DNA from: Melioribacter sp.
GTDB lineage: Bacteria > Bacteroidota > Ignavibacteria > Ignavibacteriales > Melioribacteraceae
DNA: 64,000 nt
Direction: 5' to 3'
NCBI GenBank assembly: GCA_023250955.1
Contig: JAHEZQ010000022.1
Span: forward strand, 4,958 to 68,957
The position numbers and the translations under genes are program-made. Positions 7,089 to 56,070 of the stretch are shown in pieces (within the stretch, counting starts at the first letter, position 1; each line of letters begins with the position of its first letter). The notes beneath the pieces are model-generated. The model made no database searches. It was not told the origin of the DNA and saw only the letters and a program-made list of their open reading frames with translations.

Positions 7089-7550
7089 ATGGCAAACACA
7101 TATTCACAAATGTACATACAGATTATATTTTCAGTTAAAGGAAGAGTTAATCTAATCCGTAAAGAATTTCGAGATGAATTATACAAATACATTGCCGGTA
7201 TAATTAAAAACGAAAAACAAAAATTACTAGCCATTGGCGGTACCGGTGATCATATACATATTTTTATATCTTTGAATCCTGATAAAAAATTAGCAGATCT
7301 AGTCAGAGTGATAAAATCAAATTCTAGTAAATTCATTAATGAGAAAAAATATATAAGAGGAAAATTTAACTGGCAGGAAGGTTACGGTGCATTTTCATAT
7401 GCGCATTCACAAAAGGAAACTGTGATTAATTATGTTTTGAATCAAGAGAAGCATCACGCTAAAAAGACGTTTAAAGAAGAGTATTATAAATTGCTAAAAC
7501 TTTTTGAAATTGGATTTGATGAAAAATATTTATTTGATTGGATCGATTGA
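7089..7550 (+). CDS. IS200/IS605-family Y1 (HUH) transposase-like protein, RAYT type
   Basis: 153 aa. HUH motif in HIHIFISL and C-terminal Tyr region INYVLNQEKHH. Single gene without tnpB. Followed immediately by a REP-like hairpin array. Confidence 0.8.
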   Translation: MANTYSQMYIQIIFSVKGRVNLIRKEFRDELYKYIAGIIKNEKQKLLAIGGTGDHIHIFISLNPDKKLADLVRVIKSNSSKFINEKKYIRGKFNWQEGYGAFSYAHSQKETVINYVLNQEKHHAKKTFKEEYYKLLKLFEIGFDEKYLFDWID

Positions 7551-7557
7551 ATTTTAT

Positions 7558-7952
7558 GCCGCTCCTACGGAGCTGATGTTTTATATGTTATGTTTTGTTA
7601 TCTAGATTTCGCCCCTACGGGGCTAAATGAATAAAGATTAATTAATCTATAGTCAGTGCCTTTAGGCACGACATATTGGTAGAGCCTTTAGGCACGACAT
7701 ATTGGTAGAGCCTTTAGGCACGACATATTGGTAGTGCCATAGGCATGAAATATTGGTAGTGCCATAGGCATGAAATATTGGTAGAGCCTGTAAGCACGAA
7801 AAATTGGTAATGCCGTAGACACGAAATATTGGTAGTACCGTAAGCACGAAAAATTGGTAGTGTCGTTGACATGAAATATTGGTATTACCGTAGGCACGAC
7901 ATATTGATAATAAGGTAGTCATGGCATTTAAATAGCTCCGTTAGGAGCGGCA
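7558..7952. repeat. REP-like hairpin region downstream of the RAYT-like gene
   Basis: Short GC hairpins GCTCCTACGGAGC (7562-7574), GCCCCTACGGGGC (7611-7623) and GCTCCGTTAGGAGC (7935-7948). The outermost 18-19 nt (7558-7575 tgccgctcctacggagct and 7934-7952 agctccgttaggagcggca) are reverse complements apart from one loop base, and they bracket the tandem array. Confidence 0.8.
7656..7909. repeat. tandem array of ten 25-26 bp hairpin-containing units
   Basis: Unit starts at 7656, 7682, 7708, 7734, 7759, 7784, 7810, 7835, 7860 and 7885. Consensus is GTGCC-(T)TTA/ATA/GTA-GGCAC GA(C/A)ATATTGGTA. Each unit has a 4-5 bp stem and the units abut with no spacers. Confidence 0.9.
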
Positions 7953-9911: not shown

Positions 9912-9950
9912 TTAATATCACTTGCTATCACTGCTGGACTGTGACAGCTT

Positions 9951-10144
9951 GTAAACAACGGCGTTGCAACTAAACCGCCGCCCAGAACAGCAATGCAACT
10001 TTGATAAACTAACGCCAATGATTTTATAAATACTTTTTTATTGCAACCTACCTTTAAGAGCAACCAACTTTTACAATGCAACTTTATTACCTAATAAATG
10101 CCGCTATGTTTAAAGCGGACGGCTTGAAGAACTTGTTAGCTGCA
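9951..10144 (-). repeat. attC-like long junction element, copy 1 (3' frame of locus A)
   Basis: In gene orientation: TGCAGCTAAC AAGTTCTTCAAGCCGTCCGCTTTAAACATAGCGGCATTT ... GGGCGGCGGTTTAGTTGCAACGCC GTTGTTTAC. Homologous to 53296-53487 (last 39 nt 34/39 identical) and more distantly to 54786-54959. Confidence 0.75.
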
Positions 10145-10780
10145 TTCACCTTTAGATTTTACTTTTTCATCAAGTAACGCTTTATAAGTCAATTTTTCCT
10201 TTATTAATTCAGCTATTATTTTTTGTGAACTTTCGTTATTTGCGGCAACATTTGATACCTCAAATTCTGCTATTCGTAGCGTTGGATTTAAACCATTTAC
10301 TGATGGTAACAAATCTCTAAAACAATCAAGATATGCCCTTTGAGCTGTTCGTCCACCAACAAAATTAAAATCAACAGTAGTTTTTGATTTTCTATACTTA
10401 TCAGCTTCAACTTTGTGCACATTACAAAGTAATTTGTATTTTTTTATATCGAAAGCCGTAGCCAGTTCATTGGGATAACAATCAAGAGTTTTTAACCGAT
10501 ATGAACTAAAATGCTGATATTCATCAAACTCAAAAATGAAATTATAATCACCACCGAAATATGCATCACAATCAAGTGACACATTTTTTTTGTTCTGATT
10601 TGCTTTTATATCACCTTTCAACGTATCGAATATTTTTGAAATAACTTGGAAATGATGTCCAAAATATTCTTCGCTATGTTTATTTATGAACCAAGGAAAA
10701 GTAATATTCGTTTGTGCTGACACATTTAATACTTTTGCGACTATTTCTGTTATTAATTTTTGTTTATCACCAACTGGCAT
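10136..10780 (-). CDS. hypothetical protein, possible restriction-endonuclease-like fold
   Basis: 214 aa. LDCDAYFGGDYNFIFEFDEYQH resembles the D...E-x-D-x-x-H arrangement of Vsr/DUF559-like nucleases (weak, by eye). GAGG RBS. Same module as the DUF2130-like gene. Confidence 0.35.
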   Translation of the reverse strand: MPVGDKQKLITEIVAKVLNVSAQTNITFPWFINKHSEEYFGHHFQVISKIFDTLKGDIKANQNKKNVSLDCDAYFGGDYNFIFEFDEYQHFSSYRLKTLDCYPNELATAFDIKKYKLLCNVHKVEADKYRKSKTTVDFNFVGGRTAQRAYLDCFRDLLPSVNGLNPTLRIAEFEVSNVAANNESSQKIIAELIKEKLTYKALLDEKVKSKGECS

Positions 10781-10844
10781 ATTACCTCAAAATTTTTAAG
10801 TGAGAATATTTTTTTAATATCACACGTTTACGATAAATTGTAGC

Positions 10845-12104
10845 CTATTCTAATTGTTTATTGCTGTCTTCAAGTTGTTTAACTTCTTGAGTAAGTGAAT
10901 CAATTGCAATTCCATCTACTCGACCCCAAAAATTAATTACACTTTGCTTGGCTTGGAAAATATGCGCTTCTCTTTCTGCAAATCTTTTCAATGATTCTTC
11001 TTTCTCTTTTTGTAGTGATTTATCCATTTTTTTAAATGCATCAAGAATTCCAATTATATGATTTTGAAAATCACTGCTTCTTAGATAGTCGTAAAGCATT
11101 TCCATTTTTGTGCCCTTATCAGTTTGCGAAGCTAAAGCCGAATATTGTTTAATTAATCCATCTCTTAATAGCGTTGTCATTATTTTAATATCATTTAAAT
11201 TACAAACCCATACTCCATCTCTGAAGTGTGTTTCTTTATTATCCGTTGGCATTGTTTGCGAAACTATTACACAAATGTCCGCCTTAACTCGACGACCATC
11301 ATCTTTGAGTTTTGAAACCCAATCTTTTCCAAATGTCTGAGTTTGTTTTCTTTCATATAGTATAATCCCACTTGGCTGACCAACATTATTTTTCACAACT
11401 TGAAGAATATCTGCACCGGTAACACCGGAAGGAACATCTTTTATCTCATCAATAGGAAAGCTATATCTTAGAAAATCTCGAAGCTCGATTTCTTTAACTT
11501 CACCAGATAATTTGTTTGAACCTTGCTCTAGTTTTGTTTGAGCATCTTCAAGTCGTTTGTTTAAATCATCAATTAGTTTATCTCGTTTTTGAAGCTCTGT
11601 CTTGCTCTTTTCAGTCTCGGTCACTTTTATTTTTTCTTTTTCTTGCAAAAGAAGTTCATTGAATTTCTTTTCGGCATCAGCCTCAATCTTATCTTTTAAT
11701 TCAGATTTCTCTCTTTGAACCCTTGCTAGTTCGCCCTTTGTTTTGTTTAGCTCTTTTACTTGTTCTGACTTTTGCTGCAATTCAGTTTCAAGCGCTTTTA
11801 GTTGTTCTGATTTTTCTTCATCAATTTGTTGACGAACAGTTTTTTCGATTTTTGTTTTTTCTATCTTGAGTTTACCTTGAACTTGTTTTTCAACAAGTTC
11901 AGTAAGTTTTTCCTTTTCTTTTTCTAATTCTTTTTTGTCGGATTCAATTTCTTGAAACTTAGATTGAAGTTCTTTCTCTTTTTTGACAATTTTTTTGTCA
12001 TAGTCTTTCTTAATTTGTGTTTCAAGTTGGTCATAAAGAACATCATTAACATTAATTGCAGCACCACATTCTGGACATTTGATAAAATTATCTTTCTCGC
12101 TCAT
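10845..12104 (-). CDS. DUF2130-like protein: CxxC knuckle, long coiled coil, C-terminal PD-(D/E)xK nuclease-like domain
   Basis: 419 aa. N-terminal KCPECG, about 200 aa of K/E-rich heptad-like sequence, then GADILQVV...GIILYERK (D...ExK). Paralog of 53513..54751. Confidence 0.7.
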   Translation of the reverse strand: MSEKDNFIKCPECGAAINVNDVLYDQLETQIKKDYDKKIVKKEKELQSKFQEIESDKKELEKEKEKLTELVEKQVQGKLKIEKTKIEKTVRQQIDEEKSEQLKALETELQQKSEQVKELNKTKGELARVQREKSELKDKIEADAEKKFNELLLQEKEKIKVTETEKSKTELQKRDKLIDDLNKRLEDAQTKLEQGSNKLSGEVKEIELRDFLRYSFPIDEIKDVPSGVTGADILQVVKNNVGQPSGIILYERKQTQTFGKDWVSKLKDDGRRVKADICVIVSQTMPTDNKETHFRDGVWVCNLNDIKIMTTLLRDGLIKQYSALASQTDKGTKMEMLYDYLRSSDFQNHIIGILDAFKKMDKSLQKEKEESLKRFAEREAHIFQAKQSVINFWGRVDGIAIDSLTQEVKQLEDSNKQLE

Positions 12105-12124
12105 AATAATGACTCCAATTTAAT

Positions 12125-12149
12125 TGCAGCTAACGGCTTGTTATAGCGC
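12125..12149. other. short module junction TGCAGCTAAC-GGCTT-GTTATAGCGC
   Basis: The right inverted-repeat arm of the DUF2130-A module and the left arm of the OLD module are separated by only 5 nt. Confidence 0.8.
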
Positions 12150-12152
12150 TAC

Positions 12153-13934
12153 TTAAGAATATATTTTAATTATCTTTTCCTTAAAACCTTGTTTAATAAC
12201 AAAATCATCCGCATCAACTTTCTTCAAAGCAAAGAATGGTTTACTTTTATTAGACTTATCAGTTATTCCAATTTCTTCTTCTATATCATTTTCTAATATG
12301 ATAGTGCTACCGTAATTTTTATCTATTGCATCTTCTATACGTTTGGAAGATTTATCAGCACTTGCAATACCATCTGGTTTTTTATCTGCTTGATGGTCTT
12401 TGTCATAAATTGCTATATAGGGTAAGCGGAATTTATTTAGTAATTCTATATATGGAACAAAAGCGTCTTTACTTCCACATTCAATCAGAGTATAATCATA
12501 CCTAAAAATATTTAGTTGTTTTGCTAAGAAAGGAATAACTGTTTTATCGGAAGGACCTTCAACTAAAACAACCTTTTTTGAGAAAAATAATTCACTTCTA
12601 TCCGGATTAAACCAGTGGACAAGATTAAAATTCTTCTTGTCATCGACATCTGAAAATAAGTCTGTTTTGCATTGAAATATTGTTGTGCCAGCGGTATCAT
12701 TTTCTTTTTTCACAATACAAATTGACTTATACATATTCATATCAATAAATGAACTTGAATGAGTGCAAAGCAATATTTGATTGTCAGAAGCAGAAAGTAA
12801 AACCAACGATGAAAACAACTCTCTTTGTGCTTGCGGATGCAAGTATAACTCTGGTTCTTCAAAAATGAAATACGCGGAATTAGACGTTTGCCTAATAGGA
12901 CGATCTTCCTCTGGCGTGGTAGTAGCATTTTCTCTTTCTTCTCTAATAATATTTGCCCAAGTTTTAATTAACGCAAATATTAGTGCCCTTTGTAAGCCGT
13001 GCCCCTTTCTTGAAATATCTGTTTTAATGCCATCATTTACCCAAACAGAAGTTCCAACTTTGAAAACATCATCAAAATTAGGTGGAGTTATTTCAACATC
13101 TATTTTAGTATTCCAAGATGATAATTCTCGTTCGAGACGTTGTTCAAATAGATTTAGTTCTGGTGGACGAGCTGTGTTTGCATTTCCATTCTCATCAATT
13201 TTATTTAATGAGTTTACCATTGTAACGATTTTATTCTTTGCGTCTTTGTAATCTTGGTTTGTCTCAGACAATTTTTGAATTACAGAAGAATATAATTGGT
13301 TAAAGAGTGTGCTTCCTTTCAGATTCAATTCTTCTGAAGCCGACTTGACGGATGGGATATAAAACACTGAACCAAATATTCCTTTTGCAACATTTTTAAG
13401 ACCCAAAAAGTTGGTAGTCTCTAATTCGTAAGAAAAAGTAATAGCAGTATGATTTTGTTCAATGTATTGGTTTATAGCATTAATAAATATTTCTTTAGTG
13501 ATTCTTCCATCGGCAGGGATTAAATTATATAAAGGTAGCTGACTTGCCGTTTCTCTTTTTAAATAGTTTGAAACATTTTCTTCTTTCAGCCATTCTTCAT
13601 TCGGATTTTGTATGTAACCATTATAAGAAAATTGACCAGATTTATTTGCGGTTTTTCTAACCCTAATTTCATTTTCAGATGTCAGATATTTCTTAAACTG
13701 ATTCTTATCAAAATCATCCAAATTAGAAAATGTTACTTCGACAAATAATTCATCAGAATTTTGGTTGAAATCAAGTTCATCATGTTTGATTTCTCCAAAG
13801 AAATACAACAAGGCGGAAAGTAGATTTGATTTACCGTGATTATTTTGACCGATGAAAATCATTACTTTTTCGTAATCAAGTTCAATCTCTCTTATAGAAC
13901 GCCAATTTTTAATATGAACATTTTTAATAACCAT
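12153..13934 (-). CDS. OLD-family nuclease (ABC-type ATPase fused to Toprim domain), P2 Old-like class 1 architecture
   Basis: 593 aa. Walker A GQNNHGKS, Walker B/D-loop FIFEEPELYLHP, H-loop CTHS. C-terminal Toprim VVLVEGPSDK ... IAIYDKDH. No helicase partner gene. Confidence 0.8.
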   Translation of the reverse strand: MVIKNVHIKNWRSIREIELDYEKVMIFIGQNNHGKSNLLSALLYFFGEIKHDELDFNQNSDELFVEVTFSNLDDFDKNQFKKYLTSENEIRVRKTANKSGQFSYNGYIQNPNEEWLKEENVSNYLKRETASQLPLYNLIPADGRITKEIFINAINQYIEQNHTAITFSYELETTNFLGLKNVAKGIFGSVFYIPSVKSASEELNLKGSTLFNQLYSSVIQKLSETNQDYKDAKNKIVTMVNSLNKIDENGNANTARPPELNLFEQRLERELSSWNTKIDVEITPPNFDDVFKVGTSVWVNDGIKTDISRKGHGLQRALIFALIKTWANIIREERENATTTPEEDRPIRQTSNSAYFIFEEPELYLHPQAQRELFSSLVLLSASDNQILLCTHSSSFIDMNMYKSICIVKKENDTAGTTIFQCKTDLFSDVDDKKNFNLVHWFNPDRSELFFSKKVVLVEGPSDKTVIPFLAKQLNIFRYDYTLIECGSKDAFVPYIELLNKFRLPYIAIYDKDHQADKKPDGIASADKSSKRIEDAIDKNYGSTIILENDIEEEIGITDKSNKSKPFFALKKVDADDFVIKQGFKEKIIKIYS

Positions 13935-13954
13935 TTGTTCCTCAAATTAAATAT

Positions 13955-14181
13955 GCGCTATAACTATTAATTAACCCGCCAAAAAGAAGGCGGACAAGCC
14001 CGCCAACGGATAGCATGGTGGAAGTTGTTTATCTACTTGTAAATTATTTGTTTTTATTTCATTACAAAAAGCAGAAAAGGAAAATCTATTTTCTTTGTTC
14101 TATGTATCTAAACAAAGTACCCCATTTATAGAAGCGTTTTTGGTACTAATTTAACTTAGTGTAAAAGAAAATTTTAGTCAA
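13955..14181 (-). promoter_or_regulatory. conserved 5' frame of locus A: promoter-like boxes plus structured leader
   Basis: Gene orientation: TTGACT (14181-14176), 17 nt, TAAGTT (14158-14153). The leader has stems AGTACC/GGTACT (14116-14147) and CTTTGTT/AACAAAG (14093-14117). It ends GGCGGGTTAATTAATA-GTTATAGCGC. Homologous to 55795-55992. Confidence 0.6.
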
Positions 14182-14422
14182 CCGTTTTCTTGACCCAGCC
14201 AAAAAGATCCGTCAAAAAGATGCCGGACAAGCGGCGGGCAAGCTCACCCGCCCGGATTAACCGGGCACCCTCTCCTTTGTAAGGAGAGGATGGGGTGAGG
14301 TTCTTAGTTGTAAAGACGGGATATATCCCGTTTCTACGTTTTAATTTGTTGTGTTATATCATGGAATAATTGTAATCAAAACAGATATTAAATAAGTTGT
14401 AATAACTAAAATTTAAGAAAAT

Positions 14423-18194: not shown

Positions 18195-20204
18195 ATGCCG
18201 ATTGACAAAACAAATATTTCACTAGAGAAATTAGCAGCTAATACGATAAGAATTTTATCAGTGGAAGGTGTTCAAAAAGCAAACTCCGGTCATCCCGGTA
18301 TGCCTATGGGTATGGCTGATGTTGCTTCTGTTTTATGGAGTGAATTTCTGAAGCATAACCCCGATGAACCTAAATGGGTAAACAGAGATCGTTTTGTTTT
18401 ATCAGCCGGTCATGGTTCAATGCTATTATATTCTTTACTACATGTTAGCGGATATGCTGTAACAATTGATGATTTAAAATCTTTCAGACAATGGGGCAGC
18501 AGAACGCCGGGGCATCCCGAGTACAATCATCTTCCCGGTGTGGAAACAACAACTGGTCCGTTGGGACAAGGATTTGCAAACGGAGTCGGAATGGCGATCG
18601 CATCAAAAATGATTGCCGCAAGATTTAACGATGATAAAAATCAATTGTTTGGAAACCATTATATCTACGGTATTGTTAGTGATGGCGATCTTATGGAAGG
18701 AATTTCTCACGAAGCGGCTTCGATTGCAGGACATTTGAAACTTGGTAACATAATTTATTTTTATGACGACAACAGCATAACAATTGAAGGGAATACCGGA
18801 CTAACTTTTTCGGAAAATATTGCAAAAAGGTTTGAAGCTTACGGATGGCAAACTTTACAGACAGATGCGTATGATCATGAAACTATTAGAACTTCAATAA
18901 AAATTGCACAGAGCGAAAAAGAAAAGCCAACAATTATAATCACAAAGTCTCACATCGGGTTTGGAAGTCCGCATAAAGTTGATACACCGGAAGTTCACGG
19001 CTCACCTTTAGGTAAAGAAGAATTAGCTGAAACCAAAAAGAATTTAGGATGGAATTACGAACAGGATTTTTATGTGCCTGAAGAAGTTAAAAATTTATTT
19101 GGAGCGAGAAAAAAGTTATTAATAAATGAATACTATGATTGGACTAATAAATTCGAATCGTGGGAAAAAGAAAATCCCGACAAAGCAGAATTGTTTAACA
19201 AATATGAAAATAATTGGCTACCCGAAAATCTATATGAGGAATTGCTAAACGCTGTAGGTAAAGAAGCCAACGCAACACGGGTTTTATCTAGCAAGGTAAT
19301 TCAAAAAATTGCAGAACTTGTACCAAATTTTATTGGCGGCTCTGCAGATCTCGCTCCTTCAACAAATACTTTAATGAAAAACTACAGCGCAATCGCTCCC
19401 GGAAAATTTGAAGGAAGAAATTTTCATTTCGGAATCCGCGAACATGCAATGGGTTCAATTCTTAACGGCATAACACTTTACGGCGGCTTCAAAGTATTCG
19501 GTGCAACTTTTTTAGTCTTTTCAGACTACATGCGCCCTTCAATTAGACTTGCTGCTATAATGGGATTACCTGTTGTTTATGTTTTTACTCACGATAGTAT
19601 TTTTCTCGGTGAGGACGGACCTACTCATCAACCGATTGAACATCTATCGGTACTTCGTGCAATTCCAAACGTTACCGTCTTAAGACCGGCAGATGGAATT
19701 GAAACTGCTGCCGCTTGGTATTATGCTTTACATCATAAAGGTGGACCGGTTGCATTAATTCTTACAAGACAAAAAATTGATCCAATTGTTCGAGGACTAG
19801 ATTTTGATCCTAAAGAAGTTTTGAAAGGTGGATATATAGTATCGCAAGAAAATGGAAAGAGTATTGATTTGGTTATTGCATCTACCGGCTCCGAACTACC
19901 AGTAGCTATTGCTGCACAAAAAATATTGGAAGGAAAATTATCAGTTAGAGTCGTTTCTATTCTTTCAAAAGAAATTTTTGAAAGACATAACGAAGATTAT
20001 AAAAAGAAAATCGTTCCCGATAATGTTCCCGTTGCTGTAATTGAAGCTGCATCTATGACCGGTTGGGGAGATTTGTTTAGAAATAAATTATTAACCATTG
20101 GAATGACTGGATTCGGTGCTTCGGCTCCATATCAAACTTTAGCTGAGAAATTTGGCTTTACCGGAGAACAAGTAGCAAAGAAAATTGAGGACTGGCTTAA
20201 ATAA
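18195..20204 (+). CDS. tkt: transketolase
   Basis: 669 aa. GHPGMPMGMADV and HDSIFLGEDGPTHQPIEHL motifs. Confidence 0.93.
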   Translation: MPIDKTNISLEKLAANTIRILSVEGVQKANSGHPGMPMGMADVASVLWSEFLKHNPDEPKWVNRDRFVLSAGHGSMLLYSLLHVSGYAVTIDDLKSFRQWGSRTPGHPEYNHLPGVETTTGPLGQGFANGVGMAIASKMIAARFNDDKNQLFGNHYIYGIVSDGDLMEGISHEAASIAGHLKLGNIIYFYDDNSITIEGNTGLTFSENIAKRFEAYGWQTLQTDAYDHETIRTSIKIAQSEKEKPTIIITKSHIGFGSPHKVDTPEVHGSPLGKEELAETKKNLGWNYEQDFYVPEEVKNLFGARKKLLINEYYDWTNKFESWEKENPDKAELFNKYENNWLPENLYEELLNAVGKEANATRVLSSKVIQKIAELVPNFIGGSADLAPSTNTLMKNYSAIAPGKFEGRNFHFGIREHAMGSILNGITLYGGFKVFGATFLVFSDYMRPSIRLAAIMGLPVVYVFTHDSIFLGEDGPTHQPIEHLSVLRAIPNVTVLRPADGIETAAAWYYALHHKGGPVALILTRQKIDPIVRGLDFDPKEVLKGGYIVSQENGKSIDLVIASTGSELPVAIAAQKILEGKLSVRVVSILSKEIFERHNEDYKKKIVPDNVPVAVIEAASMTGWGDLFRNKLLTIGMTGFGASAPYQTLAEKFGFTGEQVAKKIEDWLK

Positions 20205-53295: not shown

Positions 53296-53487
53296 GTGGT
53301 AACGACGGGGTTTTTAAGCCGCCGCTCATAACTGCAATGCCGCTTTGAAAAACCTACGCCAATAATTATTTACAAATGTGTTTTGTCCACTATATTCAAA
53401 AAGCAACTAAATTTTGCAGAGCTACTTTATAACAACACAAATGCCGCAATGTTTAAAGCGGACGCCTTGGAAAACTGGTTATACCGC
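53296..53487 (-). repeat. attC-like long junction element, copy 2 (3' frame of locus B)
   Basis: Gene orientation: GCGGTATAAC CAGTTTTCCAAGGCGTCCGCTTTAAACATTGCGGCATTT ... GAGCGGCGGCTTAAAAACCCCGTC GTTACCAC. Homologous to 9951-10144. Confidence 0.75.
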
Positions 53488-53512
53488 CTTCGTATTAAAC
53501 AAGAACAGAAAA

Positions 53513-54751
53513 TCATTTTTCCAATTCTTCGATTCTAATAAATTTACTTTTTTCAGTAAGTAACAACTTAGATTTTTGTTCAATTCTGTTTTGAATTAAG
53601 TCCTTAAGTTTATAGTCAATTATACCAATATCGGAAAATAGATCACGATAAATATGATAACGTTTCTCCCACGTCTTCTTGTGAGATGAAATTTCCACTT
53701 TGAGATCTCTTCCTAGTTCCATTAGCTGACCAGCGACATCATTCATTTTATTGTTATAATCATTGCTTGATAGATAATCATAAACACGTTGAACAGCTTT
53801 TTGTTTTGCCTCGTTTGACATTTTCAGCAATGCTATTTTTACAAGACTTTCACGGAGAGTATAAGTTATTGGTTCAAGACTTACTGGACTTATAACAAAG
53901 ACGGTATTTTCCACAAAGTAATATTGTTTCTTTGAAGGGAATGCATTTGTAACCAATATTGCAAAATCAGCTTGGCGTATTTTGCGAGCTTCTTTAGCTT
54001 GTTCGATATGATTTTTGCTAAATGTTTTTACTTTTTTGCATTCGTAGACAATTTTCCCAATTTCTTTTTCTTGTTCGAGAACTATCTGAATAATGTCGCC
54101 AGCTTTTCCAGGATGTTCAAATTTGTCTTGGGGAAAAAGCTCCTTGAGCTTTGCAAGAAGTTTATCTTCTTCTAATAAACCTTCAATTTGTGGAGTTATA
54201 CCTTTCTCTATTTGCTCTTTCAGTTTTTTGATTTCGTCATTAGCTTGTTCATATTTCTTAGCAGATACTTTGAGACTGTTTTCGAGCTGAGACATTTTGT
54301 TTTTAGTTTTTTTAAGGTCGTCTTGCTGCTTCTTGAATTCTTTTTTCTGAGTCTCAACTCCTTTATCAACTCCTTTTTTAATCTCAGTCTTCAATTTATG
54401 GTTGAAAGATTTTTCTAATTGATTTCGCTGATTTTTCATTTGCAACGAAGCTTTCTTTGCTTGTTCAGTCAAAATGCGTTTAGAATCACGCAATAATTTT
54501 GCTTGTTGTTTCTTAAATTCATTCGCTTGTCCCTTAACTTGATCTTTATAAACTTTTTCTTGCTCTTTAAGTTTCTTCCTCTCGGCTTCCAACTTCTTTT
54601 TATTAAGTTGTTCTTGTGCTTTCATTTTCTTCTGTTCAGCTACAAGATGTTTTATATGTTCTTGTTTGTCTTTCCACAAGCCAAGAGCTTTATCATATTC
54701 AGTTTCTGTCAAAGGTTTTCCACAAACTGGACACTTTAATGTTCGTTCCAT
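53513..54751 (-). CDS. DUF2130-like protein (CxxC knuckle, coiled coil, PD-(D/E)xK-like C-terminal domain), paralog B
   Basis: 412 aa. KCPVCG, long K/E/Q-rich coiled coil, GDIIQIV...GKIVYECK (D...ExK). AAGGAG RBS. Confidence 0.7.
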   Translation of the reverse strand: MERTLKCPVCGKPLTETEYDKALGLWKDKQEHIKHLVAEQKKMKAQEQLNKKKLEAERKKLKEQEKVYKDQVKGQANEFKKQQAKLLRDSKRILTEQAKKASLQMKNQRNQLEKSFNHKLKTEIKKGVDKGVETQKKEFKKQQDDLKKTKNKMSQLENSLKVSAKKYEQANDEIKKLKEQIEKGITPQIEGLLEEDKLLAKLKELFPQDKFEHPGKAGDIIQIVLEQEKEIGKIVYECKKVKTFSKNHIEQAKEARKIRQADFAILVTNAFPSKKQYYFVENTVFVISPVSLEPITYTLRESLVKIALLKMSNEAKQKAVQRVYDYLSSNDYNNKMNDVAGQLMELGRDLKVEISSHKKTWEKRYHIYRDLFSDIGIIDYKLKDLIQNRIEQKSKLLLTEKSKFIRIEELEK

Positions 54752-54785
54752 ATTTAGACTCCTTTACATTTTAGTAAAAACATAT

Positions 54786-54959
54786 GCGGTATAACGGCGT
54801 TACGGTTAAGCGGACGCCACGAAGTGTCGGATACCAACAACATGATTTATTGTTTATAAATTTCATTTGCACAAATGTCGAACAAAAACCAAATCAACTA
54901 AAACTACAAATACCACGACCGACTACAGCGTTCCGCATGAGACGCTTGTTATACACAAA
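54786..54959 (-). repeat. attC-like long junction element, copy 3 (between the two modules of locus B, diverged)
   Basis: Gene orientation: TTTGTGTATAAC AAGCGTCTCATGCGGAACGC ... GGCGTCCGCTTAACCGTAACGCC GTTATACCGC. It shares end motifs and central blocks (caaatgt, caactaaa) with copies 1 and 2. Confidence 0.65.
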
Positions 54960-54964
54960 CTCAA

Positions 54965-55786
54965 TTAACTATTTGCATATTCAACACACTTTGCTCTTAA
55001 TTCTGATATTTCATTAAGTGCTACTGGATTTTTGGCGAGATTAATTAATGGAAGATATTTTCTAATTAGATAACTCTCCATATTCTCAAAATCACCAGCA
55101 AATTCTATCCAGTTAACTACTAAGTTTGTATTAATCCAGTTGATAATGGTGGATTCGTTTCCTTTGTTGAACTTATAATTACGTTTGTTAGAATGGTTTT
55201 TCAATGAACCTTTTATTGGAAGGAAACCTAAAATAGCACCAAGGCTTCTAAAAAACGTTCCGTGACCCCTCGCCCTTAATTCTTGATTTAAAAAACGAGT
55301 ATTTAGACTTTCTGTCGCAATACCAATGTAAATGATATTGTGATTCCGTTTTTTAAGATGTTCGTTAAATGGGGCGGGAATTGAATCTTTATTTTTAATT
55401 CTGATACAATATATTCCAGGAACAGAGGGCACTTTTTCATCAATAGTATTTGCATCAATATAGTTGTCGGAATTAAATAAATATTTTTCCAGCTCTTTTG
55501 AATCAACAGAATTTTGAAAATCAACTTTGGGAGGATGTTCATTGATTAATTGAACAGGTGAATTTTTAGATAATCCAGAAATAACTTTTAAAATGACAAT
55601 ATTTCCTTTGCGATCAAATAAATGTGAATATTTTCTAGTTCTTCCGTGAATTTGAAATGCTGTAATTAAAGAGCCATCTTTCTTTTCATACCACTTACTT
55701 TTATTTAGTAGGTCTGCAATTTTTTGTGTGGTCATCGAGTTTTTATTCTCAGCTAATACTTTTATTATTGCCTCGTGAAGTGTCAT
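54965..55786 (-). CDS. HARE-HTH-like winged-helix domain fused to GIY-YIG-like nuclease domain
   Basis: 273 aa from ATG 55786 (RBS AAGGAAG); see the rejected 55858 start. N-terminus MTLHEAIIKVLAENKNSMTTQKIADLL...HLFDRKGNIVIL resembles HARE-HTH. C-terminus VPGIYCIRI...NIIYIGIA...R...E...N resembles GIY-YIG. Confidence 0.6.
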   Translation of the reverse strand: MTLHEAIIKVLAENKNSMTTQKIADLLNKSKWYEKKDGSLITAFQIHGRTRKYSHLFDRKGNIVILKVISGLSKNSPVQLINEHPPKVDFQNSVDSKELEKYLFNSDNYIDANTIDEKVPSVPGIYCIRIKNKDSIPAPFNEHLKKRNHNIIYIGIATESLNTRFLNQELRARGHGTFFRSLGAILGFLPIKGSLKNHSNKRNYKFNKGNESTIINWINTNLVVNWIEFAGDFENMESYLIRKYLPLINLAKNPVALNEISELRAKCVEYANS

Positions 55787-55794
55787 ATTCTTCC

Positions 55795-55992
55795 TTTGTG
55801 TATAACTATTAATTAGCCCGCAGCAGACTTCAACTCTTGGAATGTTATCTACCAACATTTATTTTGTTTTAATTAATTTGCAGACAGAAAAGGAAATCTA
55901 TTTTCTTTGTTCATATCTTCAAACAAAGTACCCCAATTATAGAAGCATTTTTGGTACTATCTCAACTTAGCTTAAAAGGAAATTGATGTCAA
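55795..55992 (-). promoter_or_regulatory. conserved 5' frame of locus B: promoter-like boxes plus structured leader
   Basis: Gene orientation: TTGACA (55992-55987), 17 nt, TAAGTT (55969-55964). Same two stems as in locus A. It ends GCGGGCTAATTAATA-GTTATACACAAA. Confidence 0.6.
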
Positions 55993-56070
55993 TACTTAGT
56001 TTACAGTAGACAGTTATCAGTAAACAGTTGCAGTTTTAATACTGCCAACTGTAAACTGCATACTGCAAAC

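What the first reader, a model, noticed from the sequence alone, without database searches (positions are those of the whole stretch)
53296..55992. Locus B: second copy of the frame, carrying a HARE-HTH/GIY-YIG-like nuclease and a DUF2130 paralog
The layout is the same as locus A, read on the minus strand. A promoter-like TTGACA-17-TAAGTT is followed by a conserved leader. Module B1 is the GIY-YIG-like gene. A 152-nt diverged long element comes next. Module B2 is DUF2130-B. The terminal long element is 53296-53477. The locus sits between a thioredoxin-fold gene and a DUF2461 gene, unrelated to the neighbourhood of locus A. So the frame plus cargo behaves as an insertion in two different chromosomal contexts.
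Basis: partly seen in the sequence, partly recalled or inferred. Interest (0 to 1): 0.8.

Follow-up and report, generated by a model that had tools for sequence, protein, structure and literature searches.

The report
Integrase-less integron gene-cassette array
Locus B is a small integron cassette array: a landing site (attI) with its own promoter, then two nuclease-gene cassettes that each end in a folded attC recombination site, with no integrase gene nearby; this is a known kind of element (a CALIN), found here in an Ignavibacteria/Melioribacter-like chromosome.

Summary
Loci A and B share a promoter-bearing leader and ~180-nt "long elements" found nowhere else in the window.

Every module is bracketed by perfect 9-10-bp inverted repeats, GTT+N6-7 ... 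N6-7+AAC, whose variable parts co-vary. That is the signature of integron gene cassettes.

A metagenome scan recovered at least 120 copies of the long element.
- In 68 of 109, the 9-mer ending in AAC recurs as a reverse complement 0.5-3.1 kb upstream (control 2.65).
- The arms pair with strong covariation.
- The bottom strand carries an unpaired G at position 16 and T at position 23, with a 6-bp stem between them, exactly as in canonical attC.
- Bona fide integron integrases (TIGR02249, 408-469 bits) head such arrays in relatives, including directly after DUF2461, the locus B site (L132).
- Another relative has that site empty (L133).
- Closer relatives keep the leader but carry different cargo.

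Locus B is therefore an attI platform plus two cassettes (GIY-YIG nuclease; DUF2130) without intI. It is a CALIN, presumably served in trans.

It is a new member of a known kind. The only unexplained part is the conserved ~120-nt promoter module that sits where intI would be at both loci.

The parts
55993..56070 (-). Spacer between the DUF2461 stop codon and the leader. It is rich in CAGT/ACTG inverted repeats (a possible terminator hairpin) and is part of the insert relative to the empty site.
   Evidence: Absent in L133, where the DUF2461 stop abuts the redoxin stop. Similar repeats follow DUF2461 in L125 and L132.
55872..55992 (-). 5' promoter module of the leader. It holds TTGACA-17-TAAGTT (55992-55964), an overlapping TTGAGA-18-TATAAT (55965-55936), and the palindrome CTTTGTT-N9-AACAAAG (55927-55906). 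This is the presumed cassette promoter (Pc-like).
   Evidence: 83% identical to locus A 14181-14068. The -35 TTGAC and the -10 TAAnTT are kept in A, B, L003, L016, L071, L083 and L125. The palindrome occurs only at the two leaders. No homology to intI. Function is inferred from sequence only.
55804..55871 (-). attI-like site. It ends ...GCGGGCTAATTAATAG|TT, with the crossover between G55806 and T55805.
   Evidence: Homologous to the attI region directly downstream of intI in L069 (local alignment z = 6.9 for B and 21.8 for A against dinucleotide shuffles). The same ...TAAnTAATA|GTT ending precedes first cassettes in 14 or more loci.
54795..55805 (-). Cassette B1. The ORF is 55786-54965 (273 aa, GIY-YIG_2 nuclease with a weak N-terminal HARE-HTH), followed by its attC.
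   Evidence: Starts GTTATACACA (55806-55797) and carries the exact reverse complement TGTGTATAAC at 54957-54948. Pfam.
54793..54950 (-). attC of cassette B1 ('B_mid'), 158 nt from AAC to GTT, belonging to a diverged subfamily.
   Evidence: 16 of 19 structure pairs form, and the extrahelical T (position 23) and G (position 16) are both present. Its first 31 nt are 97% identical to the attC of the first cassette of the intI-headed integron L131, from the same sequencing run as L001.
53303..54794 (-). Cassette B2. The ORF is 54751-53513 (412 aa, DUF2130: zinc ribbon, coiled coil and a PD-(D/E)XK-type domain), followed by its attC.
   Evidence: Starts GTTATACCGC (54795-54786) and carries the exact reverse complement GCGGTATAAC at 53487-53478. 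Pfam. The D...E-x-K residues are kept in both paralogues.
53301..53480 (-). Terminal attC ('B_term'), 180 nt, belonging to the main family.
   Evidence: nhmmer score 168 bits, E 1.2e-49. 18 of 19 pairs form; G16 is present, but position 23 is A instead of T.
13962..14181 (-). Locus A leader: the 5' promoter module (14181-14060) and attI (14059-13962, ending TTAATTAATAG|TT).
12134..13963 (-). Cassette A1. The ORF is 13934-12153 (593 aa, OLD-family ATPase/TOPRIM nuclease). Its attC is reduced to R''-AAGCC-R' (12142-12132).
   Evidence: GTTATAGCGC at 13964 pairs with GCGCTATAAC at 12149. Pfam AAA_15 plus OLD TOPRIM; PADLOC Old 1.2e-71.
9959..12133 (-). Cassette A2. It holds DUF2130-A (12104-10845) and DUF7255 (10780-10136), plus the terminal attC 10137-9957.
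   Evidence: GTTAGCTGCA at 12134 pairs with TGCAGCTAAC at 10144. The attC scores 144.5 bits, but only 14 of 19 pairs form because its arms come from two subfamilies.

Best explanation
Locus B, like locus A, is a chromosomal integron cassette array that lacks its own integrase. In IntegronFinder terms it is a CALIN, but it retains an attI site.

Layout on the minus strand:
- A ~120-nt promoter module (Pc-like).
- A ~70-nt attI ending ...TAATTAATAG|TT.
- Cassette 1: a GIY-YIG nuclease gene and a 158-nt attC.
- Cassette 2: a DUF2130 nuclease-fold gene and a 180-nt attC.

Proposed mechanism:
- An integron integrase (IntI) encoded elsewhere in the genome or population folds the bottom strand of each attC into an imperfect hairpin. 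The hairpin has an R box, a short unpaired spacer, an L-box stem with extrahelical G16 and T23, and a long variable loop.
- IntI cuts in the conserved AAC/GTT triplet.
- It excises cassettes as circles by attC x attC recombination and inserts them at attI by attI x attC recombination.
- Because the crossover is G|TT, each cassette begins with the bases that pair with the start of its own attC. This explains the co-varying inverted repeats around every module.
- The promoterless, co-oriented cassette genes are transcribed from the leader promoter.
- The cargo consists of nuclease-type, probably anti-phage, genes.

Status of each step:
- Shown here: the sequence anatomy, the cassette borders, attC structure and covariation, homology of the leader's 3' part to an intI-linked attI, IntI-headed arrays in relatives, an empty site, and cargo turnover at the same site.
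- Inferred: recombination in trans in this genome, promoter activity, and a defence function of the cargo.
For: (1) Cassette borders in the window. Four perfect 10-bp GTT.../...AAC inverted-repeat pairs tile the two loci exactly at the module borders.

(2) Cassette borders in general. Among 130 non-redundant elements from at least 120 metagenome contigs, the 9-mer ending in AAC has its exact reverse complement 468-3135 nt upstream in 68 of 109 testable cases. With the variable part shuffled, the mean is 2.65. For 11-mers the figures are 32 of 109 against 0.05. The sequence before that GTT is either the 3' end of another element or a leader end TAAnTAATA.

(3) Arrays. There are 260 profile hits, up to 9 per locus, always on one strand within a locus. 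In 64 of 66 cassettes the longest ORF is co-oriented with the array, and it fills a median 96% of the cassette.

(4) attC structure.
- 13 of 15 alifold pairs show compensatory changes.
- 95.8% of cells are paired, against 82.0% in shuffles (0 of 500 reach it) and 31-50% when the partner is slid. There are 235 double-change cells against 55.
- The bottom strand folds better than the top (-4.99 against -2.26 kcal/mol).
- The unpaired G is at position 16 and the unpaired T at position 23, with a 6-bp stem between them. This is the geometry given for canonical attC in PMC5027507.
- B_term forms 18 of 19 pairs and B_mid 16 of 19.

(5) Integrases. ORFs heading such arrays are integron integrases by TIGR02249: L035 430 bits, L022 429, L132 469, L131/P0123 431 and L069 408, against a cut-off of 265. 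L132 places intI 150 nt after DUF2461, which is the locus B site.

(6) attI. The leader's 3' part matches the intI-linked attI of L069 (z = 21.8 for A and 6.9 for B).

(7) Site history.
- Empty sites: L133 for B and L111 for A.
- Same leader, different cargo: L125 (methyltransferase plus BsoBI-type REase) and L129 for B; L003, L016, L071 and L083 for A.

(8) A possible helper. L131 (intI-attI-cassette) comes from the same run, SRR14366756, as L001, a contig 100% identical to locus B. Its attC 5' arm is 97% identical to B_mid.

(9) Literature.
- Complete integrons are reported in Ignavibacteriae (PMC9024848).
- CALINs are said to arise by integrase loss or translocation and to be mobilised in trans (PMC11389934).
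Against: - No intI or intI remnant is present in the 64-kb window (best tblastn E = 2.4). Whether this genome encodes one could not be checked.
- The attC sites are 158-180 nt long, outside the 57-141 bp range quoted for characterised sites (PMC5027507).
- The unpaired spacer is asymmetric, about 6 nt against 2 nt rather than 5-6 on each arm.
- B_term has A instead of the conserved T at position 23.
- In locus A, one attC is reduced to 25 nt and the terminal one is chimeric with 14 of 19 pairs. The orthologous array in L125 has a mutated crossover (ATT) and no attC. Some of these arrays are therefore decaying.
- IntegronFinder's own attC model was not available.
- Promoter activity and recombination have not been tested experimentally.
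- L069, which shows intI at the locus A end, may be an assembly chimera at a repeated IS.
Confidence: 0.9

Rival explanations
1. Fossil array. The loci are integron-derived but dead: relics of former complete integrons that no integrase serves any longer. They are kept only because the cargo genes, expressed from the leader promoter, are useful.
For: - No intI in the window.
- The A1/A2 attC is deleted to 25 nt, and A_term is chimeric with 14 of 19 pairs.
- Position 23 is A rather than T in both terminal attC sites.
- L125 has a mutated crossover and no attC. L003 has ATT at the attI junction.
- In Xanthomonas, intI decay with frozen CALINs is documented (bioRxiv 10.1101/2025.06.18.660453).
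Against: - Cargo differs completely among relatives that share the same intI-less leader. This holds for five genomes at site A and three at site B.
- The locus B cassette borders are perfect 10 of 10 complements, and B_mid and B_term keep 16-18 of 19 pairs.
- An IntI with the same attC subfamily co-occurs in the same sequencing run.
- Cargo replacement by homologous recombination through the flanks is not excluded, however.
Confidence: 0.3
2. Unitary mobile element. The frame plus its cargo is one transposon-like or island-like unit that inserted as a block at two chromosomal places.
For: - Both loci share both ends.
- Both intervals are absent from more distant relatives (L111, L133).
- The B leader is closer to A-site leaders (83-86%) than to its own orthologue in L125 (76%), which hints at copying between sites.
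Against: - There is no transposase, no terminal inverted repeats of the whole unit, and no recognisable target duplication.
- The leader stays at the same site while the cargo changes.
- Each module has its own co-varying borders.
- The same site can hold intI plus cassettes (L132).
- The same 5' module is joined to two different attI types.
Confidence: 0.04
3. RNA-level regulatory frame. The leader is a cis-regulatory 5' UTR, and the long elements are structured 3' UTRs, terminators or processing sites of one operon transcript, unrelated to DNA recombination.
For: - The leader has a conserved hairpin-like palindrome.
- The long elements always follow ORFs and can fold.
Against: - No Rfam family matches.
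- The leader palindrome shows no compensatory change.
- The strand that folds best is the non-transcribed bottom strand.
- The structure reproduces attC geometry to the base, with G16 and T23.
- Module starts pair with module ends 0.5-3 kb away through a conserved GTT/AAC core.
- Integron integrases head the arrays.
Confidence: 0.02
4. Generic intergenic repeats. The elements are REP/MITE-like repeats that spread through the genome and happen to flank accessory genes.
For: - The window does contain a RAYT-like gene with a REP-like array (7089-7934) and GC-rich palindromic repeats near leader A.
- MITE-like inserts occur inside some leaders and attCs.
Against: - The long elements are unrelated in sequence to those repeats.
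- They occur only in co-oriented arrays.
- They carry cassette-specific co-varying ends.
- They are physically linked to intI and attI.
Confidence: 0.01

Closest known systems
CALIN (cluster of attC sites lacking an integron integrase; Cury et al. 2016, IntegronFinder; PMC9024848, PMC11389934)
   Same: Locus B has two co-oriented attC sites with promoterless co-oriented cassettes and no intI nearby. By the literature's account, such arrays arise from integrase loss or translocation and depend on a complete integron's integrase in trans.
   Different: - An attI is retained at the head of the array.
- The attI is fused to a conserved ~120-nt promoter module that occupies the place of intI.
- The same head occurs at two fixed chromosomal sites in one genome.
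- Locus A has only one intact attC plus a vestige, so it would fall below IntegronFinder's default threshold of two attC sites.
Sedentary chromosomal integrons with lineage-specific attC repeats (for example Vibrio cholerae VCRs)
   Same: The attC sites are long and highly similar within a lineage, with a large variable terminal structure. Arrays of many cassettes of mostly unknown or defence function sit at fixed chromosomal positions (PMC5027507 for attC conservation and long VTS in SCIs).
   Different: - The arrays here are tiny (2 cassettes) and have no integrase.
- The attC sites are 180 nt, longer than the quoted 57-141 bp.
- In the complete relatives, intI is mostly co-oriented with the cassettes (L035, L050, L131, L132). 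Only L022 has the classical divergent layout.
Xanthomonas ilvD integrons and conserved-position CALINs (bioRxiv 10.1101/2025.06.18.660453)
   Same: An ancestral platform sits at a fixed chromosomal locus, intI is progressively lost, and CALINs are found at conserved positions across related species.
   Different: - A different phylum and a different attC family.
- intI is not merely frameshifted or truncated. It is cleanly absent and replaced by an unrelated promoter module.
Integron cassettes encoding anti-phage defence (bioRxiv 10.1101/2024.07.02.601719; PMC12614218)
   Same: The cargo is compact and largely single-gene, with nuclease, NADase or TIR-type candidates.
- In the window: an OLD-family nuclease.
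- In related cassettes: Mrr/type IV REase, ThsA-Macro, SEFIR/TIR, Shedu SduA_C and HNH.
   Different: No defence phenotype has been tested. B1 (GIY-YIG_2 with a weak HARE-HTH), DUF2130 and DUF7255 match no PADLOC model.

Membership tests
Integron attC site | Conserved AAC ... GTT triplets at the two ends (R'' and R'), the only sequence conserved among all attC sites | tested here: met
   Invariant in all 112 distinct aligned elements. Present in B_mid, B_term and A_term. Many R boxes are canonical GCCTAAC/GTTAGGC, others are GTATAAC/GTTATAC. Definition from PMC5027507.
Integron attC site | Because the crossover is G|TT, the first bases of a cassette are the complement of the R'' of its own attC | tested here: met
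   All 4 window cassettes show 10 of 10 complementarity. 68 of 109 metagenome cassettes match at 9 nt, against 2.65 in the control.
Integron attC site | An imperfect hairpin in which the two arms pair (L box and stem), maintained by structure rather than by sequence | tested here: met
   13 of 15 pairs show compensatory changes. 95.8% of cells are paired against 82.0% in shuffles (0 of 500) and 31-50% when slid.
Integron attC site | Extrahelical bases on the '' arm of the bottom strand: usually G at position 16 and a conserved T at position 23/24, separated by a 6-bp stem | tested here: met
   Alignment columns 182 (G) and 174 (T) correspond to positions 16 and 23 counted from the R'' end, with six pairs between them. 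B_mid has T and G. B_term and A_term have A and G.
Integron attC site | The bottom strand is the better-folding, recombinogenic strand | tested here: met
   Alifold energy is -4.99 for the bottom strand and -2.26 kcal/mol for the top, owing to G.T pairs. The recombination itself was not tested.
Integron attC site | Unpaired central spacer of about 5-6 nt on each arm; total length 57-141 bp | tested here: not met
   The spacer is about 6 nt on one arm and about 2 nt on the other. Length is 158-180 nt because the variable central part is about 143 nt. PMC5027507 notes that SCI attC sites often have longer variable structures, so this is a quantitative departure only.
Complete integron | An intI gene (integron-type tyrosine recombinase) adjacent to attI and the array | tested here: not met
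   No intI or remnant in the window. The feature is met in relatives with the same attC family: L035, L022, L050, L131 and L132, scoring 429-469 bits on TIGR02249. L050 was identified by tblastn only.
Complete integron | An attI site at the head of the array, where the first cassette joins | tested here: met
   The leader's 3' part is homologous to the attI downstream of intI in L069 (z = 21.8 and 6.9). The junction ...TAATTAATAG|TT is shared. Binding and recombination were not tested.
Complete integron | A Pc promoter upstream of attI that drives the promoterless cassettes | tested here: inconclusive
   Conserved sigma-70-like hexamers are present: TTGACN-17-TAAnTT in 7 leaders, and TTGAGA-18-TATAAT in B. 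The overall count of promoter-like sites in the region is no higher than in shuffles, and no transcript data exist.
CALIN | At least 2 attC sites clustered with no integron integrase nearby (IntegronFinder 2 default; PMC9024848) | tested here: met
   Locus B has 2 attC sites (54950-54793 and 53480-53301), and no intI lies within the 53 kb upstream or 8 kb downstream available in the window. Locus A has 1 intact attC plus 1 vestigial one.
MITE / REP-type repeat | Scattered copies in either orientation, element-wide terminal inverted repeats, and target-site duplication | tested here: not met
   All copies within a locus are co-oriented and lie in arrays. The ends are cassette-specific. No duplication is seen at the empty-site comparison.

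The most novel reading that the evidence does not exclude
The two integrase-less heads are working satellite landing pads of a 'distributed integron', not debris.
- A dedicated ~120-nt promoter/operator module is fused to attI.
- It is kept at two fixed chromosomal sites across a genus-level clade.
- It is homogenised between the sites: the B head is closer to A heads than to its own orthologue.
- It is combined with two different attI types.
- A single IntI encoded elsewhere inserts and removes defence cassettes at these heads in trans.
- The palindrome CTTTGTT-N-AACAAAG would be an operator that couples cassette expression to a stress regulator.
Probability: 0.3. Interest if true: 0.6.

Novelty: new member of a known kind. 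Interest (0 to 1): 0.35.

Why it matters
- It replaces a puzzling 'repeated frame with nuclease cargo' with a precise, testable mechanism: integron cassettes, attI and attC.
- It gives exact crossover points for four cassettes.
- It documents a large, previously undescribed attC family. The sites are 180 nt long, with canonical G16/T23 geometry, and occur in at least 120 metagenome contigs from Ignavibacteria/Melioribacteraceae-like organisms. Existing tools tuned to 57-141-bp sites may under-call this family.
- It nominates DUF2130, DUF7255 and a HARE-HTH/GIY-YIG_2 protein as cassette-borne candidate defence nucleases. They sit alongside recognisable OLD, Mrr, Thoeris-like, SEFIR/TIR and Shedu cassettes.
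- If the integrase-less heads prove active, they would be a natural example of several attI platforms served by one integrase.

Tried and rejected
1. Known RNA family for the leader or long elements. Rfam gave nothing at gathering threshold, and at the permissive threshold only a chance hit at E 2.7.
2. Leader as a structured RNA. The consensus fold has 0 compensatory pairs.
3. Whole-element MFE z-scores are unimpressive, -0.5 to -1.4. The signal lies in arm pairing and covariation, not in total energy.
4. Viral contig scans with the leader and attC patterns returned 0 hits.
5. The genome-collection scan with the leader motif returned one true hit (L003) and two chance hits (L002, L004).
6. 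The 5' promoter module as a decayed intI 3' end. MAFFT suggested this, but local and chained alignments against 7 intI ends gave summed z of about 0. The only match is a marginal 29-nt one at the L035 stop codon, p about 0.03. Rejected.
7. The 5' module as the region upstream of intI. It is absent from L050, L130, L131 and L132.
8. The palindrome as a known SOS operator. It does not match the Bacteroidetes motifs GGA-N5-TCC or CTAA-N5-TTAG (PMC8565304). This remains speculation.
9. PDB sequence search for DUF2130-B found nothing below E 0.19.
10. L069 as proof of a complete integron at site A. It is down-weighted because similarity to L071 (99.5%) begins at a repeated IS110-family element, so an assembly chimera is possible.
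11. The assembly accession for IntI P0123 could not be obtained.
12. L126, L127 and L128 as empty sites for B. Their synteny is rearranged, so they are uninformative.

Full report
**1. Checking the observation**

On the minus strand, locus B (53296-55992) reads as follows:
- a promoter-like TTGACA-17-TAAGTT at 55992-55964;
- a leader;
- an ORF (54965-55858);
- a non-coding stretch of about 160 nt;
- an ORF (53513-54751);
- a terminal non-coding stretch of about 180 nt.

Repeat search finds the partner locus A at 9957-14181. The leader core 55921-55992 is 85% identical to 14110-14181, and the terminal element 53399-53481 is 80% identical to 10056-10138. Full alignments give 81% for the leaders and 73% for the three long elements. 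Three diagnostic sub-patterns each match only these two places in the window, with 0-0.05 matches expected from shuffles.

Pfam confirms most of the gene calls:
- B1 is GIY_YIG_2 (3.7e-34). Its HARE-HTH hit is below threshold (1.2e-3).
- B2 is DUF2130 (9.4e-22).
- The flanks are an AhpC/TSA-redoxin gene and a DUF2461 gene.
- In locus A, A1 is an OLD-family ATPase/TOPRIM nuclease (PADLOC Old 1.2e-71), A2 is DUF2130 and A3 is DUF7255.

The two DUF2130 proteins are only 25% identical.

**2.

Each module starts with GTT plus 6-7 variable bases and ends with the exact reverse complement followed by the long element:

| Cassette | Start | End |
|---|---|---|
| B1 | GTTATACACA | TGTGTATAAC |
| B2 | GTTATACCGC | GCGGTATAAC |
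| A1 | GTTATAGCGC | GCGCTATAAC |
| A2 (DUF2130-A + DUF7255) | GTTAGCTGCA | TGCAGCTAAC |

These four perfect 10-bp pairs tile the loci head to tail. About 17 chance pairs occur elsewhere in the window.

This is what integron gene cassettes look like. Recombination occurs at G|TT, so a cassette begins with the bases that pair with the start (R'') of its own attC.

**3. Testing this on independent data**

Nearly all hits carry the same 180 +/- 3-nt element, always starting N-(T)AAC.

- Among 130 non-redundant copies, the 9-mer ending in AAC has its exact reverse complement 468-3135 nt upstream in 68 of 109 testable cases. Shuffling the variable bases gives 2.65. For 11-mers the result is 32 of 109 against 0.05.
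- The sequence in front of the upstream GTT is either the 3' end of another element (...CAACGYC|GTT) or a leader end (...TAAnTAATA|GTT).
- A profile search gives 260 hits, up to nine per locus, never on both strands of one locus.
- In 64 of 66 bounded cassettes the longest ORF is co-oriented with the array, and it fills a median 96% of the cassette.

**4. The long elements have attC structure to the base**

I aligned 113 bottom strands spanning several subfamilies.
- RNAalifold pairs the two arms, and 13 of 15 pairs show compensatory double changes.
- With the full 19-pair structure, 95.8% of cells are paired. Shuffles give 82.0% (0 of 500 reach the observed value), and sliding the partner gives 31-50%.
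- 235 cells carry double changes, against 55 in shuffles.
- The bottom strand folds better than the top (-4.99 against -2.26 kcal/mol).

Two bases on the 3' arm of the bottom strand are unpaired. Counted from the R'' end, they are a G at position 16 and a T at position 23, with exactly six base pairs between them. Nivina et al. describe canonical attC sites in these terms: G16, a conserved T at 23/24, a 6-bp stem between the extrahelical bases, and AAC/GTT as the only conserved sequence (PMC5027507).

The window's own sites score as follows:
- B_term: 18 of 19 pairs, with A rather than T at position 23.
- B_mid: 16 of 19 pairs, with both T and G.
- A_term: 14 of 19 pairs. Its arms come from two subfamilies.

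The A1/A2 junction is an attC reduced to R''-AAGCC-R'.

The departures from the textbook site are quantitative. Length is 158-180 nt against 57-141 bp, because the variable centre is about 143 nt. The unpaired spacer is asymmetric.

**5. Integrases**

Upstream of several leader junctions the DNA encodes ...[23 protein letters not shown]...GVRSPLD*. NCBIfam assigns these ORFs to TIGR02249, integron integrase: L035 430 bits, L022 429, L132 469, L131 (P0123) 431 and L069 408, against a cut-off of 265.
- Hundreds of close homologues are already named 'integron integrase' in Ignavibacteriales and Melioribacteraceae MAGs.
- IntegronFinder 2.0 lists complete integrons in Ignavibacteriae (PMC9024848).
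- In most of these loci intI is co-oriented with the cassettes. In L022 it is divergent.
- The window contains no intI or remnant.

**6. The leader has two parts**

The 3' 70-100 nt (B 55871-55804; A 14059-13962) is homologous to the attI region directly after intI in L069. Local alignment gives z = 21.8 for A and 6.9 for B.

The 5' ~120 nt is a separate module. It begins exactly at the -35 TTGAC. It keeps TTGACN-17-TAAnTT in seven leaders and carries the palindrome CTTTGTT-N-AACAAAG.
- It shows no homology to the intI 3' end.
- It shows no homology to the regions upstream of intI.
- It is joined to two different attI types.

It sits where intI sits in complete relatives. I take it to be the cassette promoter, but its origin is unexplained.

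**7. History of the two sites**

Site B (DUF2461 / redoxin):
- L133 (DUF2461 71% identical) has the two stop codons abutting, with otherwise identical synteny. This is an empty site.
- L132 (74%) has intI 150 nt after DUF2461, followed by cassettes with three or more attC sites.
- L125 (89%) has the same promoter-leader but a methyltransferase plus BsoBI-type endonuclease as cargo, a mutated crossover and no attC.
- L129 (86%) has the leader, the other attI type, a 250-aa cassette and an attC.

Site A (galK / 71-aa membrane gene):
- L111 has the two genes 28 nt apart.
- L003, L016, L071 and L083 share the leader, but each carries different cassettes.

The insert is a platform that stays put, and the cassettes are what turn over.

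L131 is an intI-attI-cassette contig from the same sequencing run as L001, a contig 100% identical to locus B. Its attC begins with 31 nt that are 97% identical to B_mid. This makes a trans-acting helper plausible, but it does not prove that the helper is in the same genome.

**8. Cargo**

Across 66 related cassettes, Pfam and PADLOC find the following:
- Mrr/type IV restriction enzymes
- ThsA-Macro
- SEFIR and TIR
- Shedu SduA_C
- HNH
- OLD/GajA-like ATPases
- Schlafen-AlbA2
- ParE
- eight T9SS-sorted secreted proteins

This fits recent reports that integron cassettes store anti-phage systems (bioRxiv 10.1101/2024.07.02.601719; PMC12614218).
- DUF2130 is listed as a PD-(D/E)XK superfamily member of unknown function (PMC3424549).
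- Both paralogues keep D...E-x-K.
- A defence role for B1 and B2 is inference.

**9. Comparison with what is known, and verdict**

The element works like, and is, an integron cassette array without an integrase, which is a CALIN. The literature already holds that CALINs arise by integrase loss or translocation and are mobilised in trans (PMC11389934). Conserved-position CALINs with decaying intI are described in Xanthomonas.

The details specific to this case are:
- the 180-nt attC family;
- the retained attI;
- the clean replacement of intI by a conserved promoter module at two loci of one genome;
- the B head being closer to A heads (83-86%) than to its own orthologue (76%).

I rate it a new member of a known kind, of moderate-to-low interest. 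The one open question is whether these heads are active satellite platforms.

Noticed in passing
window 7089-7934: An IS200-like Y1 transposase ORF (RAYT-like; Pfam Y1_Tnp 1.1e-24) lies next to a tandem array of 11 or more 25-26-nt units (TAGGCACGACATATTGGTAGAGCCT). This looks like a REP/BIME cluster with its mobilising enzyme.
   Followed up: partly
window 12125-12149 (minus strand): The junction between the OLD cassette and the DUF2130-A cassette is an attC whose whole interior is deleted (GCGCTATAAC-AAGCC-GTTAGCTGCA). The two cassettes are therefore permanently fused.
   Followed up: yes
window 9957-10137: The terminal attC of locus A is chimeric. One arm is of the GCAACTAAA... subfamily and the other of the ...CTTGAAGAAC subfamily, giving only 14 of 19 pairs. 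IntI crossovers at the R box would not produce this.
   Followed up: partly
L003:225-1265; L083:11737-12290; L012; L091: Several attC sites are split in their variable centre by an inserted co-oriented ORF (ORF6N, 294 aa, in L003; a 159-aa ORF with no Pfam match in L083) or by a MITE-like insert with GGGCGTGAGAT inverted ends (L091). The profile search also gives 52 5'-only and 27 3'-only partial hits.
   Followed up: partly
L069:2770-3840; L050:4836-5903; L130:15361-16446 and 19102-20187: IS110-family transposase ORFs (Transposase_20 + DEDD_Tnp_IS110, 355-361 aa) sit immediately after attC hits truncated at model position ~162-166. This is an attC-targeting IS, reminiscent of the IS1111-attC group (that comparison is from memory).
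   Followed up: partly
L022:4186-5508: A group II intron reverse transcriptase/maturase (RVT_1 1.7e-38, GIIM) lies beside the divergent intI of a complete integron.
   Followed up: partly
L069 vs L071 (3991 nt, 99.5% identical): The two contigs are identical from an IS110-family element through the last cassette, the terminal attC and the locus A flank. Upstream they are unrelated: one is intI-headed, the other has galK plus the promoter-leader. This is either a recombinant population or an assembly chimera at the repeated IS.
   Followed up: partly
window 55880-55992 vs 14068-14181, L003, L125: The locus B promoter module is 83-86% identical to A-site modules but only 76% identical to the orthologous B-site module of L125. 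This suggests copying or gene conversion between the two platforms.
   Followed up: partly
window 14190-14330; L083 ~9930-10040: GC-rich palindromic repeats (for example CTCACCCCATCCTCTCCTTACAAAGGAGAGGGTG) lie just upstream of leader A. A similar MITE-like insert interrupts the L083 leader between its -10 region and the palindrome.
   Followed up: no
window 55906-55927 and 14094-14116: The palindrome TTTGTT-N10-11-AACAAA occurs only at the two leaders (0.27 expected by chance). Its arms are conserved and its loop is free in seven leaders. It overlaps the predicted start region of the second promoter, so it could be an operator. It matches no published Bacteroidetes SOS motif.
   Followed up: partly
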